From: a virus
Taxonomy: Duplodnaviria; Heunggongvirae; Uroviricota; Caudoviricetes
Length of the DNA stretch: 64,000 nt
Virus record (IMG/VR): IMGVR_UViG_3300028048_000083
Span: 59,364-123,363 of that record
Reading direction: 5' to 3' (one strand)
Shown: positions 8,426 to 64,000 of the stretch, piece after piece
Numbering within the stretch: position 1 is the stretch's first letter
How the letters are laid out: each line of letters begins with the position of its first letter
The notes under the pieces: model-generated
Told to the model about the DNA's origin: nothing
Database searches by the model: none
What the model saw: the letters and a program-made list of their open reading frames with translations, nothing else
Position numbers and translations under genes: made by a program

Positions 8426-9521
8426 TCATCTTAAGTTCACGGGAAGTCTGATTGTAGATGTCAACCAGTGCACGTTCCATGGTTTCACGGTTTTTCTCGC
8501 CAGCATCATGGATTTTGCGGACTTCTTTAAGCATTTCAATGAACTGCTTGTTGACGTCTTTGAGTGTCTCAAGTTCAACGATTGTCTGTTCACTTGCACG
8601 GGCTGTTTCCTCGGAATTGTAGCGCACGTTTTTGGCTGTAGCCTTCATCATGCGGTTGGTCGCACCTGAAACCATCTTTGTCGCATCGATTGCGCTTTTC
8701 TGTTTGTTAATCATGATGGCAAGCGCCAGTTCGTTTTTCCATAACGGCATAACCTGGTTGATTATGTTCTCGCATTTGTCGATGATGGCGTCGTTGTTGG
8801 CTTGAGCTGCCATGATATGGAACTGGTTGTTTGAAAGTATGTGCTCGGTAACTTCCAGGTCGGCGATTTTCTTGGATATTGCGTTGACCCAGTTCTGCAT
8901 GTTCTGCACATCCCACTGGCTGTTTTCAGGGTCGTTTTGCATTTCTTTGAGTTTTGCCTCATTTTCTTTCAGTTTGAGCTTAAGGGCAACAATAAGCTCC
9001 TTGAGACGGTCAATGCTGACGTCGTTGTTCCTGAACATCGATTCAAGTGTACTGTTGTCTTTTTTGGCTGTAATTTTGGCTGCGTCCATTTTGGCGCAGA
9101 TTTTCGAAACATTGTCCTGGATAGTGTCGGACTGGATAAGCACTTTGTCGACGGTCTTCACCAGGGAACGGAGAATTGGCATCGAGCGAAGGAACGCCTT
9201 GAACTTGTTGTTTGGGTCAAGGTCGCTGATGTCGACCATGTTCAGCTGAGCCAGGGTGTCGTTGACACAGGCGATAATCTCGTCGTTGTTTTTGGAACGT
9301 GCGGAAGAAAGAATACCTTCGCTTGACTGTGAAATTGTTGAATTGATTTCGCTGCCATACACCTGAAGTGTGGTTTTGTCGTTGATATCCACAGATTCGG
9401 CAATAGCAAGATAAGCCTGTTTTTCCTCGTCGCTGATGTTTGCGATATAGTTTTCATAATCCACACTGCGTTTAAGGCTCACCAGTGCGTTGTTGTTGTT
9501 GGTATTGTTATTTCCTTCCAT
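8412..9521 (-). CDS. TelA-like (toxic anion resistance family) coiled-coil protein, tentative
   Basis: 369 aa. Asn-rich N-terminus and long helical, coiled-coil-prone body. The similarity to the TelA/KlaA family is judged by eye only. Confidence 0.35.
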   Translation of the reverse strand: MEGNNNTNNNNALVSLKRSVDYENYIANISDEEKQAYLAIAESVDINDKTTLQVYGSEINSTISQSSEGILSSARSKNNDEIIACVNDTLAQLNMVDISDLDPNNKFKAFLRSMPILRSLVKTVDKVLIQSDTIQDNVSKICAKMDAAKITAKKDNSTLESMFRNNDVSIDRLKELIVALKLKLKENEAKLKEMQNDPENSQWDVQNMQNWVNAISKKIADLEVTEHILSNNQFHIMAAQANNDAIIDKCENIINQVMPLWKNELALAIMINKQKSAIDATKMVSGATNRMMKATAKNVRYNSEETARASEQTIVELETLKDVNKQFIEMLKEVRKIHDAGEKNRETMERALVDIYNQTSRELKMIESK

Positions 9522-9550
9522 TGTAAATTACTGTTTTCATTGATTTGGCA

Positions 9551-9590
9551 ATATAACCGAATTTTGTTCTTTTTTTCCGTGAAATCACAA
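9551..9590 (-). promoter_or_regulatory. Conserved upstream motif (class B), instance
   Basis: Plus-strand ATATAACCGAATTTTGTTCTTTTTTTCCGTGAAATCAC, about 30 nt upstream (minus sense) of the ATG at 9521. Confidence 0.45.
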
Positions 9591-9977
9591 AAATTTTCTG
9601 TACCAGCTGATAAGATACACGTGCTCGTCCTGTATATCCTCGATTTTCTCGGAAAGGTTGATAATCTCATACCCGTTATCCTTGAATATTTTGAGGATAT
9701 CGTTGATGTAAGGCGACATGTCCGACGGGAATGAATACACACACCTGTAATCGGTGAAAGTGTCGCCGTTTGCTGTAACCGAAGCCTTTTCGTGTATGAG
9801 TCTGTTGATTTTGTGCTGATGCATCTTAATCAGTTTGTCAACATTGGCATATTCACCGTAAGTCGCTTTGCAATATGCGACTTCGGCTGGCATCACAATC
9901 TCATCGACAGTGAATTTCGACTTAAGCCAAAATCTGACTTTATCCAGCCATGTTTGTGGTTTGTTTGTTTCTTCCAT
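9585..9977 (-). CDS. hypothetical protein
   Basis: The ORF-track entry 9585-10079 is trimmed to the internal start MEETNKPQ, which removes the overlap with the next gene. Confidence 0.4.
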   Translation of the reverse strand: MEETNKPQTWLDKVRFWLKSKFTVDEIVMPAEVAYCKATYGEYANVDKLIKMHQHKINRLIHEKASVTANGDTFTDYRCVYSFPSDMSPYINDILKIFKDNGYEIINLSEKIEDIQDEHVYLISWYRKFL

Positions 9978-9999
9978 AAAGCTAATTGGATTAAAAAAA

Positions 10000-10200
10000 C
10001 TACTCAAAAAGTGTTCTGTCAATCTCGAACGAGTGCGGGTAATATTTGTTTCCAGTGGTTTGGGACATTTCCTGAGCAACGTTGTAGGCTTTGGTAAATG
10101 TCATGAAAATCCGCATACCGCCTTCATCGTTCATTACGGGTTTGATTGTTCCTTTATCGTCCTTGTACAGGATAACATAAACTTCATTAAAATCCCCCAT
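10000..10200 (-). CDS. hypothetical small protein
   Basis: 66-aa ORF, co-directional and tightly spaced with its neighbours. Confidence 0.35.
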   Translation of the reverse strand: MGDFNEVYVILYKDDKGTIKPVMNDEGGMRIFMTFTKAYNVAQEMSQTTGNKYYPHSFEIDRTLFE

Positions 10201-10205
10201 GTTGT

Positions 10206-11633
10206 TTATTTTTTAAAATTGTAATATTGTTCAACCAACGCCTTAAGATAAGGATTATTATCCGCATCAGCATAAATTTGATATTTATAACGGATGTCAA
10301 GCAGAATTTGATTCATTTTTTCAGCATCCATATGTTCTGGAAGGGTTGACTCAGCAATAGCTTTGTCAAGTGCATCTTTCTTATTTTCGAGTTCCTTTAT
10401 AAGATATTCATACTCATACTTATGGTTACGAATATCAAGTAGGAAATCAGCGTCAATACCCTTGCGGTAAATCTGAACCTTGCCAGTCTGGGCGATTTCA
10501 AGACCCATATTAAGCAGACGGAAGCAGTGCATCACATTCTTGCTGTCGTAATTGTGACCAAGATTGCTCTCATAGCGAACCTGGCTGCGTTTCTGAACCC
10601 ACTCCTGATACTGGTGGTATTTATTGCAATGTTGGGTAAACCCATCCTTATTATAAGTCATAACACAGATTGGCTCCTCATTCTTCGGAATTGAAGAACA
10701 ACGCACAGTGTCACTCTTGTTGATGTCATTGACGATATACTTAACACCATCCTCTTCAATGATTTTTGCTGCAGTTAAAACTTTGGTATCCTCGTCATAG
10801 AAGTAGTAATCACCTTTGTTATCAACCTTGATTTCTTTATTATTCTTTACTTCATCCACAGGAATCTTGACACCGTAATCCTTTACAATGCCACGATATC
10901 CGATTGGTTTTTGGGTATTATCGAACCATTCTCGTATTTCATGATGGAATAAATCAAACACGTCGTCAACCACAAAATTGTAATATTTTTTATCGTTATA
11001 AAACTCGCAGAATTCTGTATATTTGTTGTGGTTATGTGCACCGAAATCGTAATATACACCGTAGCAGTCAGGCATGTTGTTGAGTGAAACAAGACCGCAG
11101 TACTTCTGTTCAAGACCACGGGCATCAAGCCACTCCTTCATACAGGCACTACCCTGTTTGTATGAAGTAAAACAGAAATCAAGCGGCTCCTTACGTTCTG
11201 TAATGGGCTGGACACACATCTTGTTATAACCACGAGCTCGTTTAATCTGGGCAATGGCATAGCCAATAAATGAATTGAAACAATCCTTGGTCACAAACTC
11301 CTGACGATGCTTTTTAAGCTCAGTGATAATCGGGTGTTCATAGATAACAAAACGGTCGTCAATGAAAAGGGATTCAAGGATATTTGGATTACTTGAAAGC
11401 AGAAGGGTCAGATACTTCTTAAGGGAGTACCATGTATTGTCATGTTTATCATCAGCAATCTCATCCTGGAAATCAAGTCCAAGTCCAAGTACCTGGTTGA
11501 TAGGCTCAAGGTACACACCACCATGGTCTTCGTCGGACTCAGGGGTGTTGGTGCCGTATGCTACGCTTCCGCGCACATATTCATACAGGAGCCATCCGTT
11601 ATTTCTTATATCGTCAAATGTGTATTTCTTCAT
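10206..11633 (-). CDS. Pol-beta superfamily nucleotidyltransferase (COG3541-like)
   Basis: N-terminal LYEYVRGSVAYGTNTPESDEDHGGVY matches the nucleotidyltransferase GS-x-AYG...SDxD signature. 475 aa. Confidence 0.6.
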   Translation of the reverse strand: MKKYTFDDIRNNGWLLYEYVRGSVAYGTNTPESDEDHGGVYLEPINQVLGLGLDFQDEIADDKHDNTWYSLKKYLTLLLSSNPNILESLFIDDRFVIYEHPIITELKKHRQEFVTKDCFNSFIGYAIAQIKRARGYNKMCVQPITERKEPLDFCFTSYKQGSACMKEWLDARGLEQKYCGLVSLNNMPDCYGVYYDFGAHNHNKYTEFCEFYNDKKYYNFVVDDVFDLFHHEIREWFDNTQKPIGYRGIVKDYGVKIPVDEVKNNKEIKVDNKGDYYFYDEDTKVLTAAKIIEEDGVKYIVNDINKSDTVRCSSIPKNEEPICVMTYNKDGFTQHCNKYHQYQEWVQKRSQVRYESNLGHNYDSKNVMHCFRLLNMGLEIAQTGKVQIYRKGIDADFLLDIRNHKYEYEYLIKELENKKDALDKAIAESTLPEHMDAEKMNQILLDIRYKYQIYADADNNPYLKALVEQYYNFKK

Positions 11634-11648
11634 AATCTATTTTATTGC

Positions 11649-11942
11649 TTATTGTTTATTGTAGCGTTTGACAATAGAGGTGAATTCATACGGTGAAATA
11701 TGTGGGTAATAACCGAATGACAGTTCACCTGTTTCACAATTTCTGAACATATACTCGTTGATAGAATAAGGGTGATTTTTGCGGTTGGTTTCATTGTCGG
11801 CAATCTTGCCTTCATAGATATAGATACCCTGGTGGATACCGTAATGGATTTCATATCTTTTACCAGCCTCCAATACCAAATTATCCCATCCTTTGATAGT
11901 CTCAGGAGTTTTGTCAAAAATTATGTCATCGCCAAATTTCAT
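11649..11942 (-). CDS. hypothetical protein
   Basis: 97-aa ORF with a class-B upstream motif at 11965-12000. Confidence 0.45.
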   Translation of the reverse strand: MKFGDDIIFDKTPETIKGWDNLVLEAGKRYEIHYGIHQGIYIYEGKIADNETNRKNHPYSINEYMFRNCETGELSFGYYPHISPYEFTSIVKRYNKQ

Positions 11943-12001
11943 ATTTCCGAATTTTTAATTTACTATATAACCAAATCAAGACAGTTTTTTCCACAAAAAA
12001 A

Positions 12002-12199
12002 TTAAATTTTTGCTGGACTACAGTCATTATCGTTATTCGTTGAAGACCTCCGTTCTCGGTTGGTGTCATGTTTCCACCTGACATGTATGTCGTCGTCTTC
12101 CATTGTCAGAAATCCATTATGGACGCCGTTGTTCCATAAAGCTTCACACACTTTAGGCAACGCATACGGTGCCACTCCAAAGTCGATATATTTATCCAT
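12002..12199 (-). CDS. hypothetical small protein
   Basis: 65-aa ORF. Confidence 0.3.
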   Translation of the reverse strand: MDKYIDFGVAPYALPKVCEALWNNGVHNGFLTMEDDDIHVRWKHDTNRERRSSTNNDNDCSPAKI

Positions 12200-12214
12200 A
12201 GTTTACTGAAAAAA

Positions 12215-18468: not shown

Positions 18469-18771
18469 TTATATCATACTGTTTATTTTTCCGACAAGCG
18501 TCTCTTCGGATATAGCACCGACACTCTTATCTGCGATTTCTTTGTTTTTGACATACATAAACGTCGGTACGCTGCGTATTTTGTACTGGGTTGCAAGCTC
18601 TGGGCTCTCATCAACGTCAACATCAATGATTTTGACCTTGCCTGCAAATTTTTCTGCTACATTATTGATGATGGGTTCCATTATTCTACAAGGAGTACAC
18701 CACGTACTAGAAAATTTAACAATGACCACATTGTTATTTTCTAGAATTTTATTAAAATCTTTTAAATTCAT
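18469..18771 (-). CDS. trxA: Thioredoxin
   Basis: WCTPC active-site motif in a 100-aa thioredoxin-fold sequence (KFSSTWCTPCRIMEPI...VPTFMYVKN). Confidence 0.85.
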   Translation of the reverse strand: MNLKDFNKILENNNVVIVKFSSTWCTPCRIMEPIINNVAEKFAGKVKIIDVDVDESPELATQYKIRSVPTFMYVKNKEIADKSVGAISEETLVGKINSMI

Positions 18772-19687
18772 TTTTTATAGTTTTTATTAATTTTATAATA
18801 TTATGAAATATTTTAATACCATTTAGTTCGTTATATTTTTCATTTTTCGAATAATAATATAAATTTATCTTATGTGATTCACATAAAACACTTTTAACTA
18901 AATCCCTATCTTGTCTAATTTTAAAATTCTTATCATCATTCTTATATCTAAACGGAGTAAAATGTTGTTCACCTTGACATTCAATAGCAGCATTATAATC
19001 TGGTAAATAAAAATCTAAAGGCATTTCTTTTTTATAAACCAGCCATGAAAATTTTTTTTGCCTTTCAAATTTAATTCCATTTTTATTTAATACACTTTCT
19101 ACTTCTTTTTCTAATGAACTTTCTTTGCAATGAGTACATCCCCAGCGGTAATGATTATCTGGTGTTTGCCAAAACTCTCCGTGTTCTGGACAGATAATAC
19201 AAACTTTTGTGTGAGCATTAACATATTCTACTTTTGAATAATCATATTTACCATTATGTATACTATTAGCTTTAAGTATAAAGTCATTTATTGTATGTTT
19301 CTCTGTATTAGAACACTTAATACATCCTTTCCCTTTTAAATGGTCCTTTGGCGTTTGCCAAAACTCACCATGTTCTGGACATATTATGCATACCTTTGTG
19401 TGGTTGTTTATATAATTAACTTTTGAATAATCGTATTTATCACCGTGTACTTTGCATGCTTTTTCTATAAATTCTTCTTTATTTAATCTACAAACCCCAC
19501 CACACTTACTACAACCAATACCTTGTAAGTGACTTGATGGTACTTGCCAAAATTCACCATGTTCTGGGCATATTATACATACTTTTGTATAACTATTAAT
19601 ATATTCAACCTTAGAATAGTCATACTTGTCGCCGTGGACTTTTTTTGCTTTTTCTATAAATTCTTCTCTTGTCAGTTTTTTACCCAT
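18752..19687 (-). CDS. Triple Zn-ribbon repeat protein with C-terminal PD-(D/E)xK (Vsr/DUF559-like) nuclease domain
   Basis: Three tandem ~55-aa repeats (EFIEKA.KVHGDKYDYSKV.YIN..TKVCIICPEHGEFWQ.P..HL.G.GC.KC). The C-terminal LDFYLPDYNAAIECQGEQH motif is typical of small PD-(D/E)xK endonuclease domains, as in homing endonucleases. Confidence 0.5.
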   Translation of the reverse strand: MGKKLTREEFIEKAKKVHGDKYDYSKVEYINSYTKVCIICPEHGEFWQVPSSHLQGIGCSKCGGVCRLNKEEFIEKACKVHGDKYDYSKVNYINNHTKVCIICPEHGEFWQTPKDHLKGKGCIKCSNTEKHTINDFILKANSIHNGKYDYSKVEYVNAHTKVCIICPEHGEFWQTPDNHYRWGCTHCKESSLEKEVESVLNKNGIKFERQKKFSWLVYKKEMPLDFYLPDYNAAIECQGEQHFTPFRYKNDDKNFKIRQDRDLVKSVLCESHKINLYYYSKNEKYNELNGIKIFHNIIKLIKTIKNEFKRF

Positions 19688-22462: not shown

Positions 22463-23281
22463 TTACCTGACAGGAATTGCACCAATACTGTCAAAACGTT
22501 CCCTACCATCCTCATTGGTTAGTTGGAAACCATCAAAGGCTTTCCAATAATGACGTGTGTAAGTAGCTGGAATATTTGGATTTGTACGTTCTCCAGTGTA
22601 TTCAAATTCCTCTTCAACACGGTAAATGAACCGACCGAATTTCTTTCCATCCTCATAATCGTTCCAATCAACACCAGTCATTTCCTTAAGGAGGTTAATC
22701 TGCTCGTCTGCGTTCAGGCTTTCAAGTTGCTTGTGTGAAATTCTAGCCTGAGCTGCCTGTTGCTTTGAGTTACGGATACAGTCAATCTGCCTGTAAAGGA
22801 ACCAGGCAAACACATCATTATATGTAGGTAGATTCCAACACTTACAGTCAAACTGATATAGTGGCATATCAACAATAGTATCAATAGTTTGATGTGTAGG
22901 GATATATTTAATCGCGTGTTGAGTCATTAGATTATTGAACTTTGCCGTTGCCAAAGATGCAATAATCGAAAGCATTTTGGTAAGTCTGTAACCGAAGAAT
23001 GATTCAGTGTTCTCATTCTCGAAGTCTGTAATGACCAGTGAAATCTCATCTGACTGGACATAACCGAATTTGGCACCTTCCACTTTGGAACATACGTATT
23101 TGGCTGTCTCATTCATCATATCAATGAAATTATCGTCAAACGGTTTCTCAAACTTGTTCTTAATCATGGTTGAAAAAGAACGACCATCTAAGAAAACTAA
23201 AACATAACTTTTCGGCATTAACTTATAATCGGTCAAGCCACGGAAATACTCCATTCTGTCTTTTAATGTGTTAAATCTCAT
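22463..23281 (-). CDS. Thg1-like protein (tRNA-His guanylyltransferase family, 3'-5' polymerase)
   Basis: YVLVFLDGRSFSTMIKNKFEKPFDDNF resembles Thg1 VVRIDGKGFHKFTKKHGFEKPND. GYVQSDEISLV resembles Thg1 AYGQSDEYSFV, the second catalytic carboxylate motif. 272 aa. Confidence 0.8.
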   Translation of the reverse strand: MRFNTLKDRMEYFRGLTDYKLMPKSYVLVFLDGRSFSTMIKNKFEKPFDDNFIDMMNETAKYVCSKVEGAKFGYVQSDEISLVITDFENENTESFFGYRLTKMLSIIASLATAKFNNLMTQHAIKYIPTHQTIDTIVDMPLYQFDCKCWNLPTYNDVFAWFLYRQIDCIRNSKQQAAQARISHKQLESLNADEQINLLKEMTGVDWNDYEDGKKFGRFIYRVEEEFEYTGERTNPNIPATYTRHYWKAFDGFQLTNEDGRERFDSIGAIPVR

Positions 23282-23962: not shown

Positions 23963-24829
23963 TTAATATATTATTTCATCTGTTTTTAAATCCCTTAGCA
24001 ACCCTTCGTCGTCAATGTAGAAGCACTTGTGGCAGTCAATGCAAATGTTGCTGTTGTATACGGCAGGTGCGTCTATTACCCAGGTGTTCCAGGTGTGCTC
24101 CTCAATATTATGGTCAAAAACCTGTTTTAACTGTTGTGTATGTCCGAATATTTGTACATAAGGGGTAGGGGGAGCCATAAAAAATTCATGGCAGTCACTC
24201 CAAACAATTGACCCGCATTCGCAATGCCCTCCACGATAAAATCCTATATCGTTTAGGGCATATCTGAATTTGAAATCCCCTTTGTTGAACATGTCGGTTA
24301 ACGTTTTGCATATGGTTTCGGCACTGGTGGATAACACGTTATAATTCTCAATCAGTTTGTTTCTCTCAATCCATTCATTCTGGACGCCAGCGTGTGAAAA
24401 CAGGAATACCCTGTCACTGGCTGGTGTTGCTTCTGAATCCGTTAGCTGGTACATTTTACCAGGTATTGTTGCCATGTCGATTATTTTGAACAATTCATGG
24501 TTTGATGTGAATATGTCAAACAATTTGTTGCTATATTTAACATCAAACCTGTTGGCTGATACGTTCCATCTGTCATTCACACTACGGCGATAATACGACA
24601 AATCGTGATTGCCAATGAGCAATGTTACTTTATCCGAATGGGACTTGGCGAATTCCACAATTTCCTCAAAGTTATTGATTGAGTCTAAGTAACTGATGCC
24701 TTCATATTCATAAGGGTCATGGTAATCCCCTAAAAAGACAATCTTTTCACATTCGTCCACAAATGGGAGGATGTCTTTCCAAAACTGCCTGCCATGTACG
24801 TCTGGCACTAAAAGTATTTTTTTCTCCAT
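23963..24829 (-). CDS. Metallophosphoesterase (calcineurin-like phosphatase)
   Basis: VPDVHGR...FLGDYHD...GNHD signature motifs. 288 aa. Confidence 0.8.
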   Translation of the reverse strand: MEKKILLVPDVHGRQFWKDILPFVDECEKIVFLGDYHDPYEYEGISYLDSINNFEEIVEFAKSHSDKVTLLIGNHDLSYYRRSVNDRWNVSANRFDVKYSNKLFDIFTSNHELFKIIDMATIPGKMYQLTDSEATPASDRVFLFSHAGVQNEWIERNKLIENYNVLSTSAETICKTLTDMFNKGDFKFRYALNDIGFYRGGHCECGSIVWSDCHEFFMAPPTPYVQIFGHTQQLKQVFDHNIEEHTWNTWVIDAPAVYNSNICIDCHKCFYIDDEGLLRDLKTDEIIY

Positions 24830-24831
24830 AT

Positions 24832-25164
24832 TCAGTCTCCAATAATTTCCATAGGGACAAAGACATCATATCCGTCGTTGTCTTCAAAATGATTAATCAA
24901 TTCTTCATAACGATGTCCAAATTTGTATCGTTCATAGACAAATTTGCCGTCTCCCCATTTTGCTTCATCTGCATTTATGCATTCGCCCTCATAGACCTTT
25001 CCAAAGACAAGTTCTGACTTCGGAATAACTCTCACTATATTAGGAGAAACACCTTCTCCATACATAGCACAACCATAACAATCATCCGTCATACCCATCA
25101 GATTACAATGTCCGCCATCAGGATGCCCCATATATATTCCATTATCTTTAATAACTTCAATCAT
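24832..25164 (-). CDS. hypothetical protein
   Basis: 110-aa ORF. Confidence 0.4.
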   Translation of the reverse strand: MIEVIKDNGIYMGHPDGGHCNLMGMTDDCYGCAMYGEGVSPNIVRVIPKSELVFGKVYEGECINADEAKWGDGKFVYERYKFGHRYEELINHFEDNDGYDVFVPMEIIGD

Positions 25165-25624
25165 TATGCGCAGTGTTTAAAATGCCAATAGCTTTATAGC
25201 ATTCGCATGTAGTTAAACCATGCCTGTTGTCGCAATATACAAAATGTCTCATCTGTTCCTCCAGCATGTCCCTGTCATCATCGAGTATGGCATATGACTC
25301 CAAAGGTTCATGGTCTTTTTCGTAATCGTCAATCCACGCTTTAATTTCCTCGCCCCTTATACGGCTTGCGCAGTATGGTGTGACACTGGTGATTTTATAA
25401 TTGAACCCGCATTCCTCAAGTCTTTTTTGTGTTTCACTAACATTACCACGCCATGAAGACGAGAGTACAACCTCTGCACCAGTTTCTTCGATAATGTAGT
25501 TAAGGAACACTACAGCCCGTTCATCAATAAACTGGTCAGAATCAAACTTTTTGGATTTTATACGATATACAGCATAATCCTCGGAATTCATAATGCCGTC
25601 GATATCAAGAAACAATGCCTTCAT
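25157..25624 (-). CDS. HAD-superfamily phosphatase-like protein
   Basis: N-terminal ALFLDIDGIMN (HAD motif I, DxDG). Size is similar to the phosphatase domain of polynucleotide kinase-phosphatases. Confidence 0.5.
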   Translation of the reverse strand: MKALFLDIDGIMNSEDYAVYRIKSKKFDSDQFIDERAVVFLNYIIEETGAEVVLSSSWRGNVSETQKRLEECGFNYKITSVTPYCASRIRGEEIKAWIDDYEKDHEPLESYAILDDDRDMLEEQMRHFVYCDNRHGLTTCECYKAIGILNTAHND

Positions 25625-26602: not shown

Positions 26603-26917
26603 CTAAAGTGTATTGTAATTAATGTTTAATGGTACGAAATTGTCTTGTATTTCCGCCTCTTCAATATAAGGACCTTCGAATTTGAAAAGTTCAAGTTGAT
26701 GGTTATACACGTTATCTTTAAGATATTTCAAAAGTTCTTCTAATTCAGGCAAGTTTTTTTCAGCATTAACCTTATCCGTATACCATTTACTGGTCTCCGT
26801 GTACCAGTGTTCCCATTCGCAGGTGTCAGCGTTATTATAGCACAAGGTTGCTCTGTATATTTTCATTATCAAGATTTTTAAGCTGGTTAATAATATTACA
26901 TCTGGTTGCCATATCAT
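26603..26917 (-). CDS. hypothetical protein
   Basis: 104-aa ORF. Confidence 0.4.
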   Translation of the reverse strand: MIWQPDVILLTSLKILIMKIYRATLCYNNADTCEWEHWYTETSKWYTDKVNAEKNLPELEELLKYLKDNVYNHQLELFKFEGPYIEEAEIQDNFVPLNINYNTL

Positions 26918-27840
26918 TTGTTTTTAATCGGAAGTTTTTTGACAAATCTTCTTATATCCTCAATGTCGTTAATTTCGTCAACAACGTCCTGGATTCCTGT
27001 AGCCAGTTCGGATAGCATTGTTTTGAGCTCATCTGTTGATAATTTCACAATATCATTCAAACAGTCTAGGTCTACATAATCGTCCAAGTTGGTCTTGTCT
27101 GTTTGAATACCTTGTTTGAGTTTTTCAGTTCTTTTTATAAAATAATCATGAATGTAGTTCAAGTCATATCCCTTCAGATTTTCTTTGTATTCTGGATATA
27201 TATCGGACAGTGCGGTATTCAACGCCTCATCAAAAAGCTCCTTTCCGTAGTTTTCTTCAGGTATAAACAAGCAAAACTTGTGAAATGTAGCAATTGTGTC
27301 ATGTAAGCTTGCAACATTATTCGTGTGAATCATTGGATAATATCTGCTGCCGAGTTGAGAATAAATCTGAATTGAAGTTTTTTCAACTCGAAATTCTGAA
27401 CAAATCCTGTTTATGCGTTCGACATTGCAGAATGCATATTCATCATTAAGCAAAACTGTATAAACTGGATGGTTTGGCAAATCAAGTGTGTTGTTGATAA
27501 TATCCACGTCAGTAAACTCCAATCCCTCAACTGGTATACAGTTATGGAAACTGATGAAAGCATAACCGTTTATCCGAAACAGTTTATACTCAACACCGCT
27601 TTCGGTGTAATATATGATGTTTGTTCCGAAAACATTTTCAAAACATTCTTTAATTTGTTCTTCACTAGCCTTGGTAATCCCAAGTATATGATACGCGCTG
27701 TCATATTTCATATGTCCAATGTCGTCTTTCCCACCTGTAAAGAACAACATGTCTTCTGGAAACTGTACTTCGACGCTGTCAGCGTCTTTGGGATTTAAAC
27801 TATAGTGTCCAAATTTCAATAAAGTTTTTTTCGTTTTCAT
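26914..27840 (-). CDS. hypothetical protein
   Basis: 308-aa ORF. Confidence 0.5.
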   Translation of the reverse strand: MKTKKTLLKFGHYSLNPKDADSVEVQFPEDMLFFTGGKDDIGHMKYDSAYHILGITKASEEQIKECFENVFGTNIIYYTESGVEYKLFRINGYAFISFHNCIPVEGLEFTDVDIINNTLDLPNHPVYTVLLNDEYAFCNVERINRICSEFRVEKTSIQIYSQLGSRYYPMIHTNNVASLHDTIATFHKFCLFIPEENYGKELFDEALNTALSDIYPEYKENLKGYDLNYIHDYFIKRTEKLKQGIQTDKTNLDDYVDLDCLNDIVKLSTDELKTMLSELATGIQDVVDEINDIEDIRRFVKKLPIKNK

Positions 27841-28460
27841 TGCCCGTCTTTTTTAACAACTTCAAAACTATAAGCATACATGTAAGGATTCTCATCCCAG
27901 AAATATTTTCCATTAAGCTTTTTAATAAGACTTTCAAACGCTTCTTTGGCAGTTGGAAACCATTGCCTACTGGTGCATTTTGGCGTATGTATATCAAACG
28001 CATATTTCGGACGACCGTTTTCCTCCTGCACTTTATCAATGAAAATACCCTCTCTCATACAGTCTTCCTCACTAATATCCTGTAAACGCTCAATCTTTAC
28101 ATTAGTTATTTTAATAAAATATTGCATATATTGCCCCTGAACAAACATTTTATTTGACCAGCCAGGTAAAGTACTGACAGGAAAATAACCTTTTTGCTTT
28201 TTACCATCAATAACTTTTGTTGTGTATATCAGGTCTTGTGGTTCTAAACCAACAATATCTTTATAAGGCTGGGCTATACCAACAACATCATCTACATGGT
28301 ATTTAGGCTTAACGAATTCACCAGTCCAGCACAAGTCTTGATTCTCATCTTCACAAAAGATTTTCTTGGCAAGTCTTCTGGTCATTGTCTTGGTTCCGTT
28401 AAGAACAGCCTGTTCAAGACCATATTTGTCATTAAACATCATTTTCTTAATATCAGCCAT
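27837..28460 (-). CDS. ASCH-domain-like protein, tentative
   Basis: N-terminal MMFNDKYGLEQAVLNGTKTMTRRLAKK resembles the start of ASCH/PUA-like domains. Confidence 0.35.
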   Translation of the reverse strand: MADIKKMMFNDKYGLEQAVLNGTKTMTRRLAKKIFCEDENQDLCWTGEFVKPKYHVDDVVGIAQPYKDIVGLEPQDLIYTTKVIDGKKQKGYFPVSTLPGWSNKMFVQGQYMQYFIKITNVKIERLQDISEEDCMREGIFIDKVQEENGRPKYAFDIHTPKCTSRQWFPTAKEAFESLIKKLNGKYFWDENPYMYAYSFEVVKKDGQ

Positions 28461-29373
28461 TGTTCTTGTGTTTTAAGATATTATTTTTAATATTGAACCA
28501 CGCATGATTCATCATATAAGGTATGTTTTTGTCATTGCAGCCATATAAACCACATGAGTAAAAATCATGGCACTCAAGCACCCATGTTCCGTTTTTGGTA
28601 ACAGCAACATCAAGGGTATAAGCCTCTGGTGCCTCAGTGTACTGGTCAATGAATTGATAGATTCTCTCAGTCTTAGGAAATGCAAATGGGTCACCAGAAT
28701 AATTCTTTACATCAATACCCTTTCCCTTATACACAAATACACGCCATTCTGACTCAATATCTTCCAACATTGTTGATACCTGGCAATTGGTAAATGCTTC
28801 GAATGACCTATGGTGGAAAATCTTATGCACTTGGTAACCATTATGCATTCTGGCTTCCAAAGTCATGTCTTTATTATATAAATCAGGAATCACATCATAG
28901 AAACCGTTGCGTTCATCTTTAATAGTATCAAGTGACTTAACAAAGAAACGATTAGAGTTTTTATCATTCAACGGTAAATGCATGTTTACATAGCCAAAGT
29001 AATTGTAAACATCTTCACCAGACATAAGATTACGACATATTCTACCTGAATACATTTCAGGCATCAATTGTTCAGGCACGTTAATAGGTTTCGGAAAGTA
29101 ATCAGTACCAAACACCTGCTTAGCAAATTCCTTTACAAATTCAACACTACCGACTGGAGTGATGTCTGTAACATCTGATGCATCTTCATTTTCAAATGAC
29201 TTATGTGTATCAACAAATCTTTTAATGTTTTCCAATAAACAAAAGTCAATATCCATTGTCGACTGTTGTGAACCGCCATATAGCCAACTGTAATATTCAA
29301 TGAGTTCAATCAAAGTTTTTGAAAAATCATGAATAACTCGTCCATGATTGTCTATTTGTATCAAAAATTTCAT
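28453..29373 (-). CDS. ATP-grasp domain protein
   Basis: RFFVKSLDT..., EWRVFVYKGKGIDV... and YTLDVAVTKNGTWVLECHDFYSCGLYG resemble the ATP-grasp K/E/N motif order. Confidence 0.45.
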   Translation of the reverse strand: MKFLIQIDNHGRVIHDFSKTLIELIEYYSWLYGGSQQSTMDIDFCLLENIKRFVDTHKSFENEDASDVTDITPVGSVEFVKEFAKQVFGTDYFPKPINVPEQLMPEMYSGRICRNLMSGEDVYNYFGYVNMHLPLNDKNSNRFFVKSLDTIKDERNGFYDVIPDLYNKDMTLEARMHNGYQVHKIFHHRSFEAFTNCQVSTMLEDIESEWRVFVYKGKGIDVKNYSGDPFAFPKTERIYQFIDQYTEAPEAYTLDVAVTKNGTWVLECHDFYSCGLYGCNDKNIPYMMNHAWFNIKNNILKHKNNG

Positions 29374-31858: not shown

Positions 31859-32194
31859 TTAGACTATTTTTATCTGTTTTTTGGTAACATCTGGTTTTGG
31901 GTGTGGCACTTCATCAAATTTCAGTTCATCCAAAGCATCATATATCTTTTTGATATTTGAAATTGATTGCCTATTTGTGCACCAAAGGGTTTCAGTTATT
32001 GAGTCACTGCCACTAACTTTATATCTGATATGCAATTCTCCAATCAAAAGGTTTCCAACCCTTACACTTGGGTCAAAGAACACATTTGCTATTTCTGGCG
32101 TTATTTCAACCAATTCCTGGGCATCATAAGTCTTTAAATCATCGCCATCATATAATTTAATTATCGTGTCTAACAGTATGTACTTTGATTTCAT
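31859..32194 (-). CDS. hypothetical protein
   Basis: 111-aa ORF. Confidence 0.4.
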   Translation of the reverse strand: MKSKYILLDTIIKLYDGDDLKTYDAQELVEITPEIANVFFDPSVRVGNLLIGELHIRYKVSGSDSITETLWCTNRQSISNIKKIYDALDELKFDEVPHPKPDVTKKQIKIV

Positions 32195-32634
32195 AGTTCA
32201 CGTTTTGATTGTCTGTCAATATCCCTCTCTTTAATATCCCTGCGCTTGTCGTATGTTTTTTTGCCACTGGCAATAGCAACCACCACTTTGCACAAGTTTC
32301 TCTCATTGATGAAAAGCTTATATGGCACAACAGTCATTCCCTTGATTTTAACCTGCTCATATATTTTCTTCAATTCACTTTTGTTCAAGAGCAGTTTCCT
32401 GTCCCTGTTGTAATCCTTGGCTGTATACGTGTCGTGTTCACGTTTTGGAGTCACAACCGAATTTTTAAGAAACAGTTCATTTCCAACAAAATGACAATAA
32501 GATTCAGAAATGTTGACACGTCCATCTCTGATTGCGCTGATTTCCGCGCCATTCAACACAATGCCAGCAACATATGTGTCCTTGAACTCATAGTTGAAAC
32601 TTGCCTTTTTGTTTGTAATTTCAAATCTTTTCAT
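32191..32634 (-). CDS. smpB: SsrA-binding protein SmpB homolog
   Basis: NKKASFNYEFKDTYVAGIVLNGAEISAIRDGRVNISESY...NRDRKLLLNKSELKKI...KGMTVVPYKLFINERNLCKVVVAIASGKKTYDKRRDIKERD matches the SmpB family end to end. Confidence 0.85.
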   Translation of the reverse strand: MKRFEITNKKASFNYEFKDTYVAGIVLNGAEISAIRDGRVNISESYCHFVGNELFLKNSVVTPKREHDTYTAKDYNRDRKLLLNKSELKKIYEQVKIKGMTVVPYKLFINERNLCKVVVAIASGKKTYDKRRDIKERDIDRQSKREL

Positions 32635-33037
32635 CTTTTATCTGATATGTCTTTAACCACACCGAAACCGTCTTTCACGCAATTAATCACTAACTGTGCT
32701 GCGGCATATATTGGATATTCACTGTAGCATACATATGGAGTACTGTCAGGGGCTTCCTGGTATTGGGCAAAATAAAACGGCGCATCTTTCCAGAAAATCA
32801 ACCCCTTGTATTCAGGGTGCCATTCGATTAGTTTATACTGTAGTTCCGATAGTGTATATGTAGGTGTAAACGGATAATTCATTTGCTCAGCCAACGACTT
32901 GTCTTCAGAGACATATTCTGTTCCGTCGATATCGATTATCCAGTATTTGTTGTCACCCATGGGAACACCGCTATCAACGAATTTCTGCATCCATTTCTTA
33001 TTCAGGAAATCTTGTTCTATTTTATCCGATAATCTTA
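32631..33037 (-). CDS. hypothetical protein
   Basis: Trimmed to the internal Met (MLRLSDK...). A class-B motif lies upstream at 33064-33092. Confidence 0.4.
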
Positions 33038-33098
33038 ACATAACACAGCTTATTATATTACAATAACCGAAATTGTGCAACTTTTTCCACGATTCCTG

Positions 33099-34326: not shown

Positions 34327-35496
34327 ATGAGTATAAGGACTTATAACATACAACTCTCAGGCGAACAGTCGTTCGTGAACCATTGGTTCAATCTCTTGTC
34401 AACGACAAGAGATGCATATAACCGTTGTTCACAACTGATTGTTGAGAACGATATTCCTCTCAGTTTGAAAGTGGTTCATAACCAGTGTTATAATATCCTT
34501 CGCTCAGAATACCCATCACTACCGTCACAGACGGTGATACGCGTTCAACGAGAGGTGCTGGCTGCATTCAAGTCCAAGAAATCCAACAAGCACAAGGGTT
34601 CTGCTCCACAGAAACATAATTTGTCAATGACGTTGGACAAACGCATGTACTCTAACTTCACTCGTGACGGCATATCCCTTGTGAGTGAGGTCAGCAACAA
34701 GCGTAAACGCTTGTCCTTCACACCATATCCTAAGATTGCGGAGATGTTTGCCACATCTGTGGCAAAAGACCCTACCATCTTCTGGAGGAATGACGGACTG
34801 TGGCTGTCAATACCGTTTGAATTTAACGGATGTATGCCTGAAAGCATATATGCCATAGGTGTGGACCTTGGCATGAAGAGGTTCTTCGTAACATCGGAAG
34901 GCAAGGCTTTCACTGACAAGGAGTATCTTGGACGTAGGCGAAAGATAAGGCATCTTAAGAAGAAACTACAGTCCAAGGGAACGAGGAGTGCCAAGAAGCG
35001 CCTCAAGAAGGTTTCAAGGAAAGAACATAACATGTCAAAGAACTATTGTCATCAGGCGTGCAACGCCCTCATAAGGTCGACAAAGGCAAGCTTTGTCGTG
35101 ATGGAGGATTTGGCAAAGATAAAGAAGAACACAAGCCGAAGCAAGGAAGGGCACAAGAGGAAGAGACACAACAACGCCATATCACAGGTGCCGTTCCATA
35201 TGTTTAAGCAGATATTGACGTACAAGGCAACGCTTGCTGGAAAGCAGGTGGTATCGGTTTCGCCATTCAATACAAGTCAGTGTGACAGCAGGACAGGTCT
35301 CAAGGAAGGAAAACGACAGGGCTGTCGTTTCTATACCGAAGACGGATACCTGTTGGATGCCGACTGGAACGCAGCAGTCAATATAGCTCAGAAGAGCAAA
35401 CACCCACTCTCAAAATCAGTGTTGCCGTTGCACGGCAAACTTGAGTTCCTGAGTGGCAGGGCATCGTCAACTGCCCAATCGTATCAAGACCTTTAA
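34327..35496 (+). CDS. tnpB: TnpB (IS605/IS1341-family OrfB; RNA-guided nuclease family)
   Basis: RuvC-I-like IGVDLGMKRFF, RuvC-II-like VVMEDL, C-terminal zinc-finger region NTSQCDSRTG...GCRFYT, and RuvC-III DADWNAAVNIAQK. No IS200-type tnpA is adjacent. Confidence 0.85.
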   Translation: MSIRTYNIQLSGEQSFVNHWFNLLSTTRDAYNRCSQLIVENDIPLSLKVVHNQCYNILRSEYPSLPSQTVIRVQREVLAAFKSKKSNKHKGSAPQKHNLSMTLDKRMYSNFTRDGISLVSEVSNKRKRLSFTPYPKIAEMFATSVAKDPTIFWRNDGLWLSIPFEFNGCMPESIYAIGVDLGMKRFFVTSEGKAFTDKEYLGRRRKIRHLKKKLQSKGTRSAKKRLKKVSRKEHNMSKNYCHQACNALIRSTKASFVVMEDLAKIKKNTSRSKEGHKRKRHNNAISQVPFHMFKQILTYKATLAGKQVVSVSPFNTSQCDSRTGLKEGKRQGCRFYTEDGYLLDADWNAAVNIAQKSKHPLSKSVLPLHGKLEFLSGRASSTAQSYQDL

Positions 35497-52482: not shown

Positions 52483-53421
52483 TTACTTTATGTTCTCAAT
52501 CATTTCGATATTATCCATGTACCACTTGTGGAAATTGTGGTATTCAACATCACCGACTTCATTAACCACATTACGAAGGTCATCGTAGTCACAATGCTTG
52601 ATTTTGACAATGATGCGGTTACCGCGCGGGTCTTTGATTGGGACGACAGGTCTTGCAACAATGCCTTCTTCGATAAAATCAGGATTGTCAGCATTAGGAA
52701 CCTTGGTTTTGAAGCCTTCAATCACCATTTTCTCAGCTTCATCGATAGTCATTTGACCAAGATAAGGGACAACATCCAAACCGAGATTGCCACAGTATTC
52801 GTCCAACATATTGATTGGAATCCACCAACCCTGCTGGTAGATATCAAATACACTGAAACGGTTATTCTCCTTGTCATAGTTGCCGCCGCATTTCTGGATT
52901 TTCTTTCCGAAAAACTCGCCATAGATGTATACAGGAACCTCTTCCAGCTGCACACCATAGAAATTGCCGTTCTCTTTGAAGTCAACCTCATTGATGTTTG
53001 CGATAGGTTCACCACACTCAGCCCAATAATACTGAATCTGGTTTTTGTCATTCAGAACTGGGGTGAAACGGGCACTCTCTGGCGGAAACATTTCAGTCAG
53101 GATTGGTTTGATTCGTTCAATAACCTGGTCAAGCATGGCTTTCTGACCCGTTCCGACAATATCAGCGTTATCAGTCTTGCCGCCACAGAAACATTCGCCT
53201 GTTGATGGAAGATAGATAATTTTCGAATTGGTTCCATCCAGTTTCGAAAAACAGTCGAATTTCAAATCCTTAATATATTCCATGTAATCGTCGGAGAAAC
53301 AACCCATTATAATTTTGTTTTGGAATTTAGCCCAAATCTTGTTCGGAAGTTCCACCTTGTTAAGGTTTTTGTAACGACGGTACAAGGTGTTGATTTTTTG
53401 ATATGTAAGAGTTTTTTGCAT
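52483..53421 (-). CDS. ATP-dependent RNA ligase (Rnl2-like)
   Basis: Nucleotidyltransferase motif I FSKLDGTN (KxDGxN), motif IV EGIVARP, motif V IVKIKH. 312 aa. Confidence 0.75.
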   Translation of the reverse strand: MQKTLTYQKINTLYRRYKNLNKVELPNKIWAKFQNKIIMGCFSDDYMEYIKDLKFDCFSKLDGTNSKIIYLPSTGECFCGGKTDNADIVGTGQKAMLDQVIERIKPILTEMFPPESARFTPVLNDKNQIQYYWAECGEPIANINEVDFKENGNFYGVQLEEVPVYIYGEFFGKKIQKCGGNYDKENNRFSVFDIYQQGWWIPINMLDEYCGNLGLDVVPYLGQMTIDEAEKMVIEGFKTKVPNADNPDFIEEGIVARPVVPIKDPRGNRIIVKIKHCDYDDLRNVVNEVGDVEYHNFHKWYMDNIEMIENIK

Positions 53422-63645: not shown

Positions 63646-64000
63646 GCCAATTTTGTTTTATTTTAAACACCCGTTTTCCAAACCCAGTTCGCACAGACGA
63701 CGGCTTTGTTTAATTGTTGTGTAATAGTTTTTCATATTCACCAATTAAATACTTATACCTATGTGAATCCATACATTTTCTGTGCTCTTCATATGTCGGA
63801 GCCACTTTAAACATGTAGTCTGGATAGAGAAAAGAAAACCGTACACGAAAACTTATGAAAATCTATGATTCCCAAGTTTCCGCTTCTTGTTTCAACGAGT
63901 CACTGCTTCTTAGGTCAGGCTCTGCCTGACGGTCGTCCACTGTTGGGCTCTCCACAAGCGTGAATTCGGGTCTACGGAACCCTATTATTCTTTTCCCCTC

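What the first reader, a model, noticed from the sequence alone, without database searches (positions are those of the whole stretch)
32191..32634. Phage-encoded SmpB (trans-translation factor)
The 147-aa ORF matches SmpB along its whole length, including the C-terminal basic tail (GKKTYDKRRDIKERDIDRQSKRE) that enters the ribosomal mRNA channel. SmpB is normally a host housekeeping protein partnered with tmRNA. A phage copy suggests the phage manipulates ribosome rescue. It might keep translation running when host mRNAs or tRNAs are being cleaved, which would fit the RNA-repair toolkit. Or it might pair with a phage tmRNA-like RNA. The ORF-free island at 6205-7090 and the structured GC-rich element at the right window edge are places to look for that RNA.
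Basis: partly seen in the sequence, partly recalled or inferred. Interest (0 to 1): 0.6.

Follow-up and report, generated by a model that had tools for sequence, protein, structure and literature searches.

The report
SmpB gene in a huge phage
The ORF is a genuine, full-length, selectively maintained copy of the ribosome-rescue protein SmpB in what is almost certainly a very large Bacteroidota phage; this kind of gene is already documented in huge phages, and no partner tmRNA is encoded in this window.

Summary
Window 32191-32634 (minus strand) encodes a 147-aa SmpB. It passes Pfam PF01668 (158.7 bits, cut-off 27) and the TIGR00086 equivalog (159.8, cut-off 119.1). Its predicted fold matches only solved SmpBs. 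The tail residues needed for ribosome entry are present (GKK-x-Tyr-DKR plus the basic helix).

The context is phage-like and syntenic with metagenome contigs of 216-402 kb. No capsid, portal or clear terminase gene lies in the window.

The gene is not a recent host capture. It sits in a 66-sequence clade with no cellular member, and the nearest Bacteroidota SmpBs are about 50-55% identical. dN/dS is about 0.08.

No tmRNA is present in the 64 kb by ARAGORN, Rfam or a control-validated TLD scan.

Phage SmpB is already known (Al-Shayeb 2020; PHROG 6791; more than 500 IMG/VR loci, at least 23 of 80 with an adjacent tmRNA).

Two details are new. A sister subclade carries a permuted tmRNA 4 kb from SmpB. 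The window's subclade has no linked tmRNA, has lost a near-universal lysine (E. coli K42), and has a hypervariable loop 2.

Verdict: new member of a known kind, modest interest.

The parts
32191..32634 (-). SmpB coding sequence (147 aa plus stop)
   Evidence: PF01668 at 158.7 bits. TIGR00086 at 159.8 and NF003843 at 160.6, both above their cut-offs. PDB SmpBs at E=3e-36. AlphaFold model whose top 21 PDB matches are all SmpB.
32266..32634 (-). SmpB body, residues 1-123: beta-barrel with helices at 29-36 and 85-95. Contains F13 (E. coli His22 position), the RKLLLNKSEL segment (residues 79-88), L114 (E. coli Trp122 position) and K116.
   Evidence: Alignment A1 with E. coli SmpB; the E. coli sequence was verified against PDB 6q98. 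Secondary structure from the model. Roles of the E. coli residues from PMC8363625 and PMC2175365.
32194..32265 (-). C-terminal tail, residues 124-147: G124-K125-K126-T-Y128-D129-K130-R131, then a basic helix with K135, R137, I139 and R145.
   Evidence: Maps one-to-one on E. coli G132 K133 K134 Q135 H136 D137 K138 R139 K143 R145 W147 R153. Functions from PMC4151336 and PMC8363625. Helix 130-146 in the model. The tail is conserved across the whole phage clade.
32401..32454 (-). Loop 2, residues 61-78. Hypervariable in length and sequence in the phage clade but conserved in cellular Bacteroidota (E-Y-x-x-G...H-E-P).
   Evidence: Alignment and per-column statistics. Low pLDDT and no secondary structure in the model. 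E. coli loop 2 residues 76-80 lie near tmRNA nucleotides 22-24 by hydroxyl-radical probing (PMC2175365).
32536..32538 (-). Codon for Ser33, at the position of the near-universal lysine (E. coli K42) in helix alpha-2
   Evidence: Lys in 100% of 80 GTDB Bacteroidota SmpBs, in 98% of 65 IMG/VR SmpBs and in E. coli. V/S/T/A in all 55 members of the window's subclade. Lys in all 11 members of the sister subclade.
32631..33080 (-). Upstream ORF (149 aa as listed; called as 136 aa in related contigs), unknown function. Its stop overlaps the SmpB start (ATGA).
   Evidence: No Pfam or PHROG match. Not conserved next to SmpB in the 72%-identical relative L007.
31859..32194 (-). Downstream ORF (111 aa), unknown function. 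Its start overlaps the SmpB stop (ATGA).
   Evidence: No Pfam or PHROG match.

Best explanation
This is a working SmpB encoded by a very large phage of Bacteroidota. It has been inherited vertically within a phage lineage for a long time.

During infection it is translated from a tightly packed operon. It binds the tRNA-like domain of a tmRNA, enters the empty A site of ribosomes stalled on broken or stop-less mRNAs, and threads its basic C-terminal helix into the vacant mRNA channel. This allows trans-translation and ribosome recycling.

No tmRNA gene lies in the 64-kb window or within 10 kb of SmpB in four diverged relatives of the same subclade. My committed reading is therefore that this phage's SmpB loads the host's own tmRNA. 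That would raise or preserve ribosome-rescue capacity while RNA is being damaged, whether by phage-driven host mRNA decay or by host RNA-targeting defences. It would act alongside the neighbouring RNA-repair genes.

Shown: family membership, fold, intact tail and core motifs, purifying selection, phage-type context, and no tmRNA in the window. Inferred: expression during infection, use of host tmRNA, and the benefit to the phage.
For: Identity.

Functional residues retained (with roles):
- aromatic F13 at the E. coli His22 position
- RKLLLN-x-EL helix
- L114 at the Trp122 position, the usual residue in Bacteroidota
- K116
- G-K-K, Tyr128 (His136 in E. coli, Tyr126 in T. thermophilus), D-K-R, K135, R137, R145

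Selection:
- dN 0.17 against dS about 2.1 versus L007
- 2 synonymous and 0 non-synonymous changes versus strain L001, whose flanks are 93-98% identical
- the tail is nearly invariant across 66 clade members

Phage context:
- 90% coding, 92 of 113 ORFs on one strand
- PHROG matches, homing endonucleases, intein, phage-type AAA ATPase
- synteny with contigs of 216-402 kb made of small unannotated genes
- by contrast, the 54%-identical P0084 sits among SusC-like, MetK and MiaA genes of a real Bacteroidales chromosome

No tmRNA:
- ARAGORN
- Rfam at gathering score and at E<=10
- a TLD scan requiring a T-arm plus a G3:U70 acceptor stem. An initial, looser version recovered all 8 positive controls but gave one weak in-ORF candidate in the window, on the minus strand near 13608. 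The strict version gave 0 hits in the window and 0 in reversed-sequence controls, but missed the ARAGORN-called tmRNAs of L111/L113
- relatives L001, L007, L010, L184 and L185 are also negative

RNA-repair neighbours.
Against: Only 64 kb of a genome that is probably 200-400 kb was searched, so a phage tmRNA elsewhere is entirely possible.

The sister subclade encodes a permuted tmRNA near SmpB. At least 23 of 80 IMG/VR SmpB loci have an adjacent tmRNA.

Two features deviate from cellular SmpB. The near-universal Lys (E. coli K42) is replaced, and the TLD-proximal loop 2 is hypervariable. This could mean an altered RNA partner.

No phage structural hallmark gene lies in the window. Nothing here shows expression or binding.
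Confidence: 0.45

Rival explanations
1. Same protein and same mechanism, but the partner is a phage-encoded tmRNA located outside this 64-kb window. The phage would then bring a private two-component rescue and tagging system, as its sister subclade and many other huge phages do.
For: L012 and L183 (SmpB 60-62% identical, same phage-only clade) carry an Rfam RF04321 permuted tmRNA at 53.8 and 60.5 bits (gathering score 47). It has a G3:U70 acceptor stem and a tag ending in ...SYAMAA, and lies about 4 kb downstream of SmpB.

At least 23 of 80 IMG/VR SmpB loci have a tmRNA within 10 kb, most within about 2 kb.

Al-Shayeb 2020 reports both tmRNAs and SmpB in huge phages.

Only about a sixth of a genome of the likely size was visible here.
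Against: None of the five sampled members of the window's subclade has a tmRNA within 10 kb of SmpB, and none lies in the 64-kb window.

The L012 tmRNA has no sequence homologue in the window.

The genes flanking the L012 tmRNA are absent from the window, so synteny gives no predicted site.
Confidence: 0.35
2. The window's SmpB subclade has diverged in function. It would still reach the ribosome through its intact tail, but its RNA-binding surface has changed. It might then compete with host SmpB, redirect or block host trans-translation (for example to stop tagging of phage proteins or to defeat a rescue-dependent defence), or use a non-tmRNA RNA.
For: All 55 members of the subclade have lost the Lys that is invariant in 80 of 80 cellular Bacteroidota SmpBs, and the replacement is unconstrained (V, S, T or A). 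The 11-member sister subclade, which has a linked tmRNA, keeps it.

Loop 2 lies near tmRNA nucleotides 22-24 in E. coli (PMC2175365). In the phage clade it varies freely in length and sequence.

The subclade shows no linkage to a tmRNA gene.
Against: The other mapped TLD-proximal elements are conserved: beta-2, the RKLLLN helix, K116 and the hydrophobic residue at the Trp122 position. So are all tail residues needed for accommodation and peptidyl transfer. A pure decoy would not need these.

The role of K42 could not be established from the accessible literature.

Loop 2 also differs between E. coli and Bacteroidota, so it is not universally constrained.
Confidence: 0.12
3. The window is not phage DNA but part of a bacterial chromosome, plasmid or other element, and this is simply that cell's housekeeping smpB.
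For: No capsid, portal or tail gene was found in the window. The only terminase-family PHROG hits (ORF 607-2487) share their residues (about 206-557) with equally partial hits to helicase-loader and primase families, and this stretch includes the intein/LAGLIDADG region (residues 411-468). They are therefore ambiguous. There is no nucleotide match in the GenBank phage collection and no close relative in IMG/VR.
Against: The gene content is small, unidirectional and mostly unannotated ORFs with many PHROG matches, homing endonucleases and a phage-type ATPase.

There are no ribosomal, metabolic or envelope housekeeping genes, unlike the true Bacteroidales smpB locus.

Syntenic contigs of 216-402 kb have the same character, and a glucosaminidase (typical of phage lysins) lies just left of the window.

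No member of the 66-sequence SmpB clade is found among 185,579 GTDB species genomes.
Confidence: 0.05

Closest known systems
Bacterial SmpB (SsrA-binding protein; TIGR00086 / PF01668; e.g. E. coli, Thermus thermophilus, Thermotoga maritima 7LJP)
   Same: Same length class. Same predicted fold (rmsd about 2 A over 111 residues to 7LJP, 2CZJ and 1WJX). Same tail motif G-K-K-x-aromatic-D-K-R plus a basic helix. Same RKLLLN helix and K116. Scores above the equivalog cut-offs.
   Different: Encoded in a phage-type genome with no tmRNA gene in view. Ser replaces the near-universal Lys (E. coli K42). Loop 2 is unrelated to the conserved Bacteroidota loop. The tail stops at the E. coli M155 equivalent, 2-6 residues short of cellular Bacteroidota SmpBs. 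At most about 55% identical to any cellular sequence.
SmpB genes of huge phages (Al-Shayeb et al. 2020, PMC7162821; Lak megaphages MK250015-29; 735-kb phage LR756501; PHROG 6791)
   Same: SmpB carried by phages with genomes above 200 kb and Bacteroidota-type hosts, as part of an expanded translation gene repertoire. The window protein hits phrog_6791 at 2.4e-41 and Lak SmpB at 46% identity.
   Different: A separate SmpB clade, 44-46% identical to Lak and LR756501 with no shared synteny. In Lak and LR756501 the gene sits beside large tRNA arrays. Here only one tRNA lies in 64 kb, and it is 26 kb away.
Phage SmpB-tmRNA cassettes (IMG/VR loci such as L111, L123, L140, L147, L148; L012/L183 with a permuted tmRNA)
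   Same: Homologous SmpB in viral contigs. L012 and L183 belong to the same phage-only SmpB clade as the window.
   Different: Those loci encode their own tmRNA within 0.5-4 kb of SmpB. The window and its subclade do not.
Phages that encode a tmRNA without a reported SmpB (phage G, PMC12484599; marine Melnitz phage with a two-piece tmRNA, PMC9004378)
   Same: Phage investment in the trans-translation pathway.
   Different: The opposite half of the system: they carry the RNA, whereas this window carries the protein.

Membership tests
SmpB (PF01668 / TIGR00086) | Full-length match to the family HMMs above the curated cut-offs | tested here: met
   PF01668 at 158.7 against 27. TIGR00086 at 159.8 against 119.1 and NF003843 at 160.6 against 130.
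SmpB (PF01668 / TIGR00086) | SmpB fold: beta-barrel body with three helices, plus a C-terminal helix | tested here: met
   AlphaFold model with mean pLDDT 78. The 21 PDB matches with E<=0.001 are all SmpB, with rmsd 1.7-2.3 A over about 111 residues for the core.
SmpB (PF01668 / TIGR00086) | C-terminal tail: G-K-K, aromatic residue stacking on G530, D-K-R, and basic residues lining the mRNA channel | tested here: met
   G124 K125 K126, Y128, D129 K130 R131, K135, R137 and R145 align with E. coli G132 K133 K134, H136, D137 K138 R139, K143, R145 and R153. W147 corresponds to I139, which is hydrophobic. Roles.
SmpB (PF01668 / TIGR00086) | Body residues mapped next to the tmRNA TLD or the decoding centre: aromatic at His22, the alpha-3 RKLLLN segment, hydrophobic at Trp122, and K124 | tested here: met
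   F13, R79-K-L-L-L-N84, L114 and K116. Roles from PMC8363625 and PMC2175365. The K124/L91/N93 mutational data are recalled from memory only and were not retrieved.
SmpB (PF01668 / TIGR00086) | Near-universal lysine in helix alpha-2 (E. coli K42, motif E-V-K-S-L-R) | tested here: not met
   Ser33 in the window and V/S/T/A in all 55 subclade members. Lys in 80 of 80 GTDB sequences, in E. coli, in T. thermophilus and in T. maritima. The function of this residue was not found in the accessible papers.
SmpB (PF01668 / TIGR00086) | A tmRNA (ssrA) gene in the same genome | tested here: inconclusive
   None in the 64-kb window by three methods. The rest of the genome is not available: the source contig ends at the right edge, and the left extension could not be fetched.
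SmpB (PF01668 / TIGR00086) | Binds tmRNA and supports tagging of stalled nascent chains | not testable with these tools
   Needs biochemistry or genetics.
Phage-encoded (huge-phage) translation genes | The gene lies on a viral genome, shown by hallmark structural or packaging genes on the same molecule | tested here: inconclusive
   No unambiguous capsid, portal or terminase gene in the window. The context is strongly phage-like and syntenic with 216-402 kb contigs. Cellular context is excluded by contrast.
Phage-encoded (huge-phage) translation genes | Homologues recur in recognised viral genomes | tested here: met
   Lak megaphages and LR756501. phrog_6791. At least 518 SmpB-encoding stretches in IMG/VR, many on contigs of 150-465 kb. 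Annotated in the Al-Shayeb 2020 genomes.
Jug (jumbo gut) phages, PMC12880540 | 360-402 kb genomes, 27-30% GC, Bacteroides/Phocaeicola hosts, frequent introns and inteins | tested here: inconclusive
   Relatives' contigs are 360,584, 386,354 and 402,048 bp, and the window has an intein and homing endonucleases. But local GC is 36-38% in the window, L007 and L010, and the paper mentions neither SmpB nor tmRNA. No Jug genome was available for comparison.

The most novel reading that the evidence does not exclude
The window's 55-member SmpB subclade may have been uncoupled from its ancestral phage tmRNA. The sister subclade keeps a linked permuted tmRNA and the universal lysine. The window's subclade has lost both, and lets the TLD-proximal loop 2 drift, while holding the ribosome-entry tail under strong purifying selection. 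That pattern would fit a phage SmpB retuned to capture or subvert the host's tmRNA, or to act on stalled ribosomes with a different RNA, rather than simply duplicating the host factor.
Probability: 0.12. Interest if true: 0.6.

Novelty: new member of a known kind. Interest (0 to 1): 0.3.

Why it matters
Trans-translation is the main ribosome-rescue pathway of bacteria, and some phages are known to need it. Nobody has tested what the SmpB genes of huge phages do.

This locus adds a well-defined, phage-only SmpB lineage with two natural variants. One is linked to a permuted phage tmRNA and keeps the universal lysine. The other, this window's, has neither. That contrast offers a concrete way to ask whether phages bring a private rescue and tagging system or tap the host's.

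On its own, a phage SmpB is no longer surprising.

Tried and rejected
- Megablast of 20 kb around the gene against GenBank phages: no match.
- Single-protein search of IMG/VR: no close relative. Only the alignment-based search worked.
- Island 6205-7090 as a tmRNA: rejected. It holds a normal cloverleaf tRNA (acceptor pair 3-70 is C-G, not G-U) plus about 730 nt with no tmRNA-family hit even at E<=10 in a 1.1-kb search.
- Right-edge element as a tmRNA: rejected. The best hit is sub-threshold RAGATH-18, at 27.2 bits against a gathering score of 44.9.
- Gap 11634-12214 as a candidate tmRNA site by analogy with L012 (upstream of a roughly 480-aa gene and TelA): rejected. It is filled by two small ORFs and has no TLD. 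The large genes did not prove homologous, and only SmpB, TelA and one TelA neighbour are shared with L012.
- blastn and nhmmer of the L012 tmRNA against the window: nothing.
- Exact-pattern scans of IMG/VR for the L012 TLD: only a tRNA-Lys 3' end, or nothing.
- Scan for the window's tRNA 3' half, to find island homologues: only tRNA ends matched.
- Walking beyond the window: the 81.5-kb source-like contig ends about 14 nt past the right edge. The left extension returned only a 9-kb contig.
- Identifying the phage as a Jug phage: contig lengths fit but GC does not, so this is unresolved.
- Finding the structural role of E. coli K42 in papers: not found.
- ARAGORN alone is not sufficient. It missed tmRNAs that Rfam and the TLD scan found in L012, L130, L139, L148 and L183.

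Full report
**1. The observation**

The ORF lies at 32191-32634 on the minus strand and encodes 147 aa. Its start overlaps the stop of the upstream ORF (ATGA), and its stop overlaps the start of the downstream ORF (ATGA). It is therefore embedded in a tightly packed operon.

It matches SmpB over its whole length:
- Pfam PF01668 at 158.7 bits against a cut-off of 27, residues 6-146.
- NCBIfam equivalog TIGR00086 at 159.8 against 119.1, and NF003843 at 160.6 against 130.
- Solved SmpB structures down to E=3e-36.
- An AlphaFold model (mean pLDDT 78) with the expected barrel, helices at 29-36 and 85-95, and a C-terminal helix at 130-146. All 21 PDB matches with E<=0.001 are SmpB, with rmsd about 2 A over about 111 residues for the core.

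A longer antisense ORF (32209-32727 +) has no family match and is a shadow ORF.

**2. Functional residues**

I aligned the protein with E. coli SmpB. I wrote the E. coli sequence from memory and then verified it as identical to PDB 6q98 chain 5.

| E. coli residue | Window residue | Role |
|---|---|---|
| His22 | F13 | Stacks on A1493 and A790 |
| Trp122 | L114 | Inserts into the TLD pocket; Leu is the usual Bacteroidota residue |
| Lys134, His136 | K126, Y128 | Tyr as in T. thermophilus Tyr126; stacks on G530 |
| Asp137-Lys138-Arg139 | D129-K130-R131 | Essential for accommodation |
| Lys143, Arg145, Arg153 | K135, R137, R145 | Line the mRNA channel |
| Trp147 | I139 | Hydrophobic contact with uS5 |

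Roles are from PMC4151336 and PMC8363625. The RKLLLN-x-EL helix is intact, and K116 (E. coli K124) is intact too; the helix lies near TLD G19 by hydroxyl-radical probing (PMC2175365).

**3. Two deviations**

(a) The lysine of the E-V-K-S-L-R motif (E. coli K42) is Lys in 80 of 80 GTDB Bacteroidota SmpBs, in 98% of IMG/VR SmpBs, and in E. coli, T. thermophilus and T. maritima. It is Ser in the window.

(b) Loop 2 (window residues 61-78) is conserved in cellular Bacteroidota but varies freely in length and sequence in the phage clade. In E. coli, residues 76-80 of this loop lie near tmRNA nucleotides 22-24.

I could not find the role of K42 in the accessible papers.

**4. Is it phage?**

The evidence in favour:
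- The window is 90% coding, with 92 of 113 ORFs on one strand.
- Many ORFs match PHROGs, including HNH and homing endonucleases, an intein-bearing protein, and an AAA ATPase found in 391 phage records.
- About 20 kb around SmpB is syntenic, at 40-80% protein identity, with a 386-kb contig.
- Other relatives sit on contigs of 216-402 kb with the same character of small, unidirectional, mostly unannotated genes.
- A glucosaminidase lies just left of the window.
- By contrast, P0084, one of the closest named cellular homologues (54%), sits among SusC-like, MetK, MiaA and glycoside hydrolase genes.

The evidence against: no capsid or portal gene lies in the window. The terminase-family PHROG hits of ORF 607-2487 share their residues (about 206-557) with equally partial hits to helicase-loader and primase families, and that stretch includes the intein/LAGLIDADG region, so they are ambiguous.

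I put phage origin at about 0.95.

**5. Origin of the gene**

Database hits fall into tiers:

| Identity to window SmpB | What the hits are |
|---|---|
| 96-97% | Same phage, other samples |
| 59-73% | Unnamed metagenome proteins, on contigs up to 402 kb |
| 54% or below | First named Bacteroidota SmpBs (a few unnamed proteins reach 58%) |

In GTDB the best cellular matches are all Bacteroidota at up to 49-52%. A neighbour-joining tree of 269 SmpBs puts the window in a 66-sequence clade with no GTDB and no IMG/VR member. IMG/VR viral sequences are its next neighbours.

Against L007, dN is 0.17 and dS about 2.1. Against strain L001 there are 2 synonymous and 0 non-synonymous differences.

The gene is an old, vertically inherited and selectively maintained phage gene, not a recent capture. 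Sample names of the relatives suggest rumen or gut metagenomes. That is my reading of the names and was not tested.

**6. The tmRNA question**

In the window:
- ARAGORN finds only tRNA-Arg(CCT) at 6257-6341 on the minus strand.
- Rfam finds no tmRNA family at gathering score, or at E<=10 over the whole window.
- Targeted lax-filter scans of the island and of the right edge are also negative.
- I wrote a scan for a T-arm followed by an acceptor strand that pairs with a GGG-initiated 5' strand through G3:U70, in either standard or permuted order. The initial version recovered all 8 positive controls but gave one weak in-ORF candidate in the window (minus strand, near 13608). The strict version gave 0 hits in the window and 0 in reversed-sequence controls over 1.7 Mb, but missed the ARAGORN-called tmRNAs of L111/L113.

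The island's tRNA is an ordinary cloverleaf with a long variable arm and a C3-G70 pair. The right-edge element is a sub-threshold RAGATH-18-like hairpin (27.2 bits against 44.9) that sits at a contig end.

**7. Relatives do have tmRNAs**

Among 80 IMG/VR SmpB loci, at least 23 carry a tmRNA within 10 kb, most within about 2 kb of SmpB. Four of them have the order tRNA(s), GOLLD RNA, SmpB, tmRNA.

Within the window's own clade, L012 and L183 carry a permuted tmRNA about 4 kb downstream of SmpB. These are subclade B, with SmpB 60-62% identical to the window's. The tmRNA matches Rfam RF04321 at 53.8 and 60.5 bits (gathering score 47). It has a G3:U70 acceptor stem and a tag ending in ...SYAMAA.

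None of the five sampled members of the window's subclade A has one within 10 kb: the window/L001, L007, L010, L184 and L185.

The split coincides exactly with the lysine. All 11 members of subclade B keep Lys, and all 55 members of subclade A have V, S, T or A. Each group is monophyletic in the neighbour-joining tree.

**8. Interpretation**

The best-supported reading is a working SmpB that sustains trans-translation in the infected cell. The partner tmRNA cannot be resolved from 64 kb. I commit to the host tmRNA at 0.45, against a phage tmRNA elsewhere in the genome at 0.35. A diverged or subverting role is possible at 0.12, and a non-phage origin is unlikely at 0.05.

The neighbouring RNA-repair genes fit a general theme of keeping translation running under RNA damage, but they do not test it:
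- RNA ligase, 52483-53421
- Thg1-like, 22463-23281
- HAD_SAK_2, 25157-25624
- metallophosphoesterase, 23963-24829
- RlaP, 10206-11633
- Ro60/TROVE-like, 4167-5615

**9. Novelty**

SmpB and tmRNA in huge phages are reported in Al-Shayeb et al. 2020, and SsrA-binding protein is annotated in at least 8 of the 200 supplementary files of that paper that were searched. PHROG 6791 is an SmpB family. Lak megaphages carry one.

This is a new member of a known kind. The subclade contrast and the permuted tmRNA in a Bacteroidota-type huge-phage lineage are the only parts that go beyond what I found described.

Noticed in passing
window 6342-7075 (minus strand): An ORF-free stretch of about 730 nt directly upstream of the tRNA. 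It is closed by a helix of about 15 bp (7057-7043 with 6369-6356). The minimum free energy z-score is -4.0 on the minus strand and -3.3 on the plus strand. There is no Rfam match, and the only homologue in hand is the same phage (L180). It is a candidate large structured RNA next to a tRNA, as GOLLD and ROOL are in phages, or a MITE-like element with terminal inverted repeats. It is not a tmRNA.
   Followed up: partly
window 6257-6341 (minus strand): A tRNA with an Arg CCU anticodon but a 12-nt long variable arm, which in bacteria is typical of Leu, Ser and Tyr tRNAs. It scores 36.9 bits against RF00005, but was missed at gathering settings with the default filters.
   Followed up: partly
window 4167-5615 (minus), with 5731-6204 and 10206-11633: A Ro60/TROVE-like protein (DUF2828/DUF7788, phrog_850 'RNA-binding protein') sits next to an SSB gene and close to the tRNA and the structured island. 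Bacterial Ro60 proteins work with tRNA-like Y RNAs, so the island or the tRNA could be its RNA partner. An RlaP RNA-repair nucleotidyltransferase and TelA are nearby.
   Followed up: no
window 63884-63958 (minus strand): A sub-threshold match to the RAGATH-18 RNA motif (27.2 bits against a gathering score of 44.9; E=0.004 in a 401-nt search). It lies about 50 nt from where the 81.5-kb source-like contig ends. Strain variants L177-L179 have different genes at this point.
   Followed up: partly
window 34327-35496 (plus strand): A TnpB / IS605 OrfB (Cas12f-like TNB domain) gene about 1.7 kb from SmpB, on the opposite strand to its neighbours. It is present in strain L002 but absent from strain L001, so it is a recent mobile insertion. 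A relative (L185) has two such genes near SmpB.
   Followed up: partly
L012:14435-14737 and L183:14558-14816: A permuted (two-piece type) tmRNA gene in huge-phage contigs whose SmpB is of Bacteroidota type. It has a G3:U70 acceptor stem, a tag ending in ...SYAMAA, and the two copies are 85% identical. They differ in the length of the linker between the acceptor piece and the coding piece. ARAGORN does not detect it.
   Followed up: yes
L120, L130, L139, L148 (IMG/VR), about 8700-11700 in each: A recurrent arrangement: tRNA(s) of unusual length (about 91-93 nt), then GOLLD RNA (285-320 bits), then SmpB, then a tmRNA on the opposite strand (in L130, L139 and L148; none reported in L120). GOLLD sits immediately upstream of a ribosome-rescue cassette. 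ARAGORN missed these tmRNAs.
   Followed up: partly
window 32536-32538 (Ser33 of SmpB) and clade-wide: The near-universal lysine of the E-V-K-S-L-R motif is lost in all 55 members of the window's subclade. It is kept in the 11-member sister subclade that has a linked tmRNA. One IMG/VR sequence (L126) also lacks it.
   Followed up: partly
window 607-2487 (plus strand): A 626-aa protein with an exonuclease-like N-terminus and a LAGLIDADG/intein-like insert. Its PHROG hits to terminase, helicase-loader and primase families all fall on the same stretch (residues about 206-557), which includes the LAGLIDADG/intein insert, so they may reflect an insert shared between unrelated phage proteins rather than the host protein. 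A separate HNH homing endonuclease lies at 18752-19687.
   Followed up: no
window 26914-27840 (minus strand): A 308-aa protein with weak, sub-threshold matches to ToxN (type III toxin, an RNase) and to the LXG toxin domain. It lies beside an R2K ATP-grasp protein (28453-29373).
   Followed up: no
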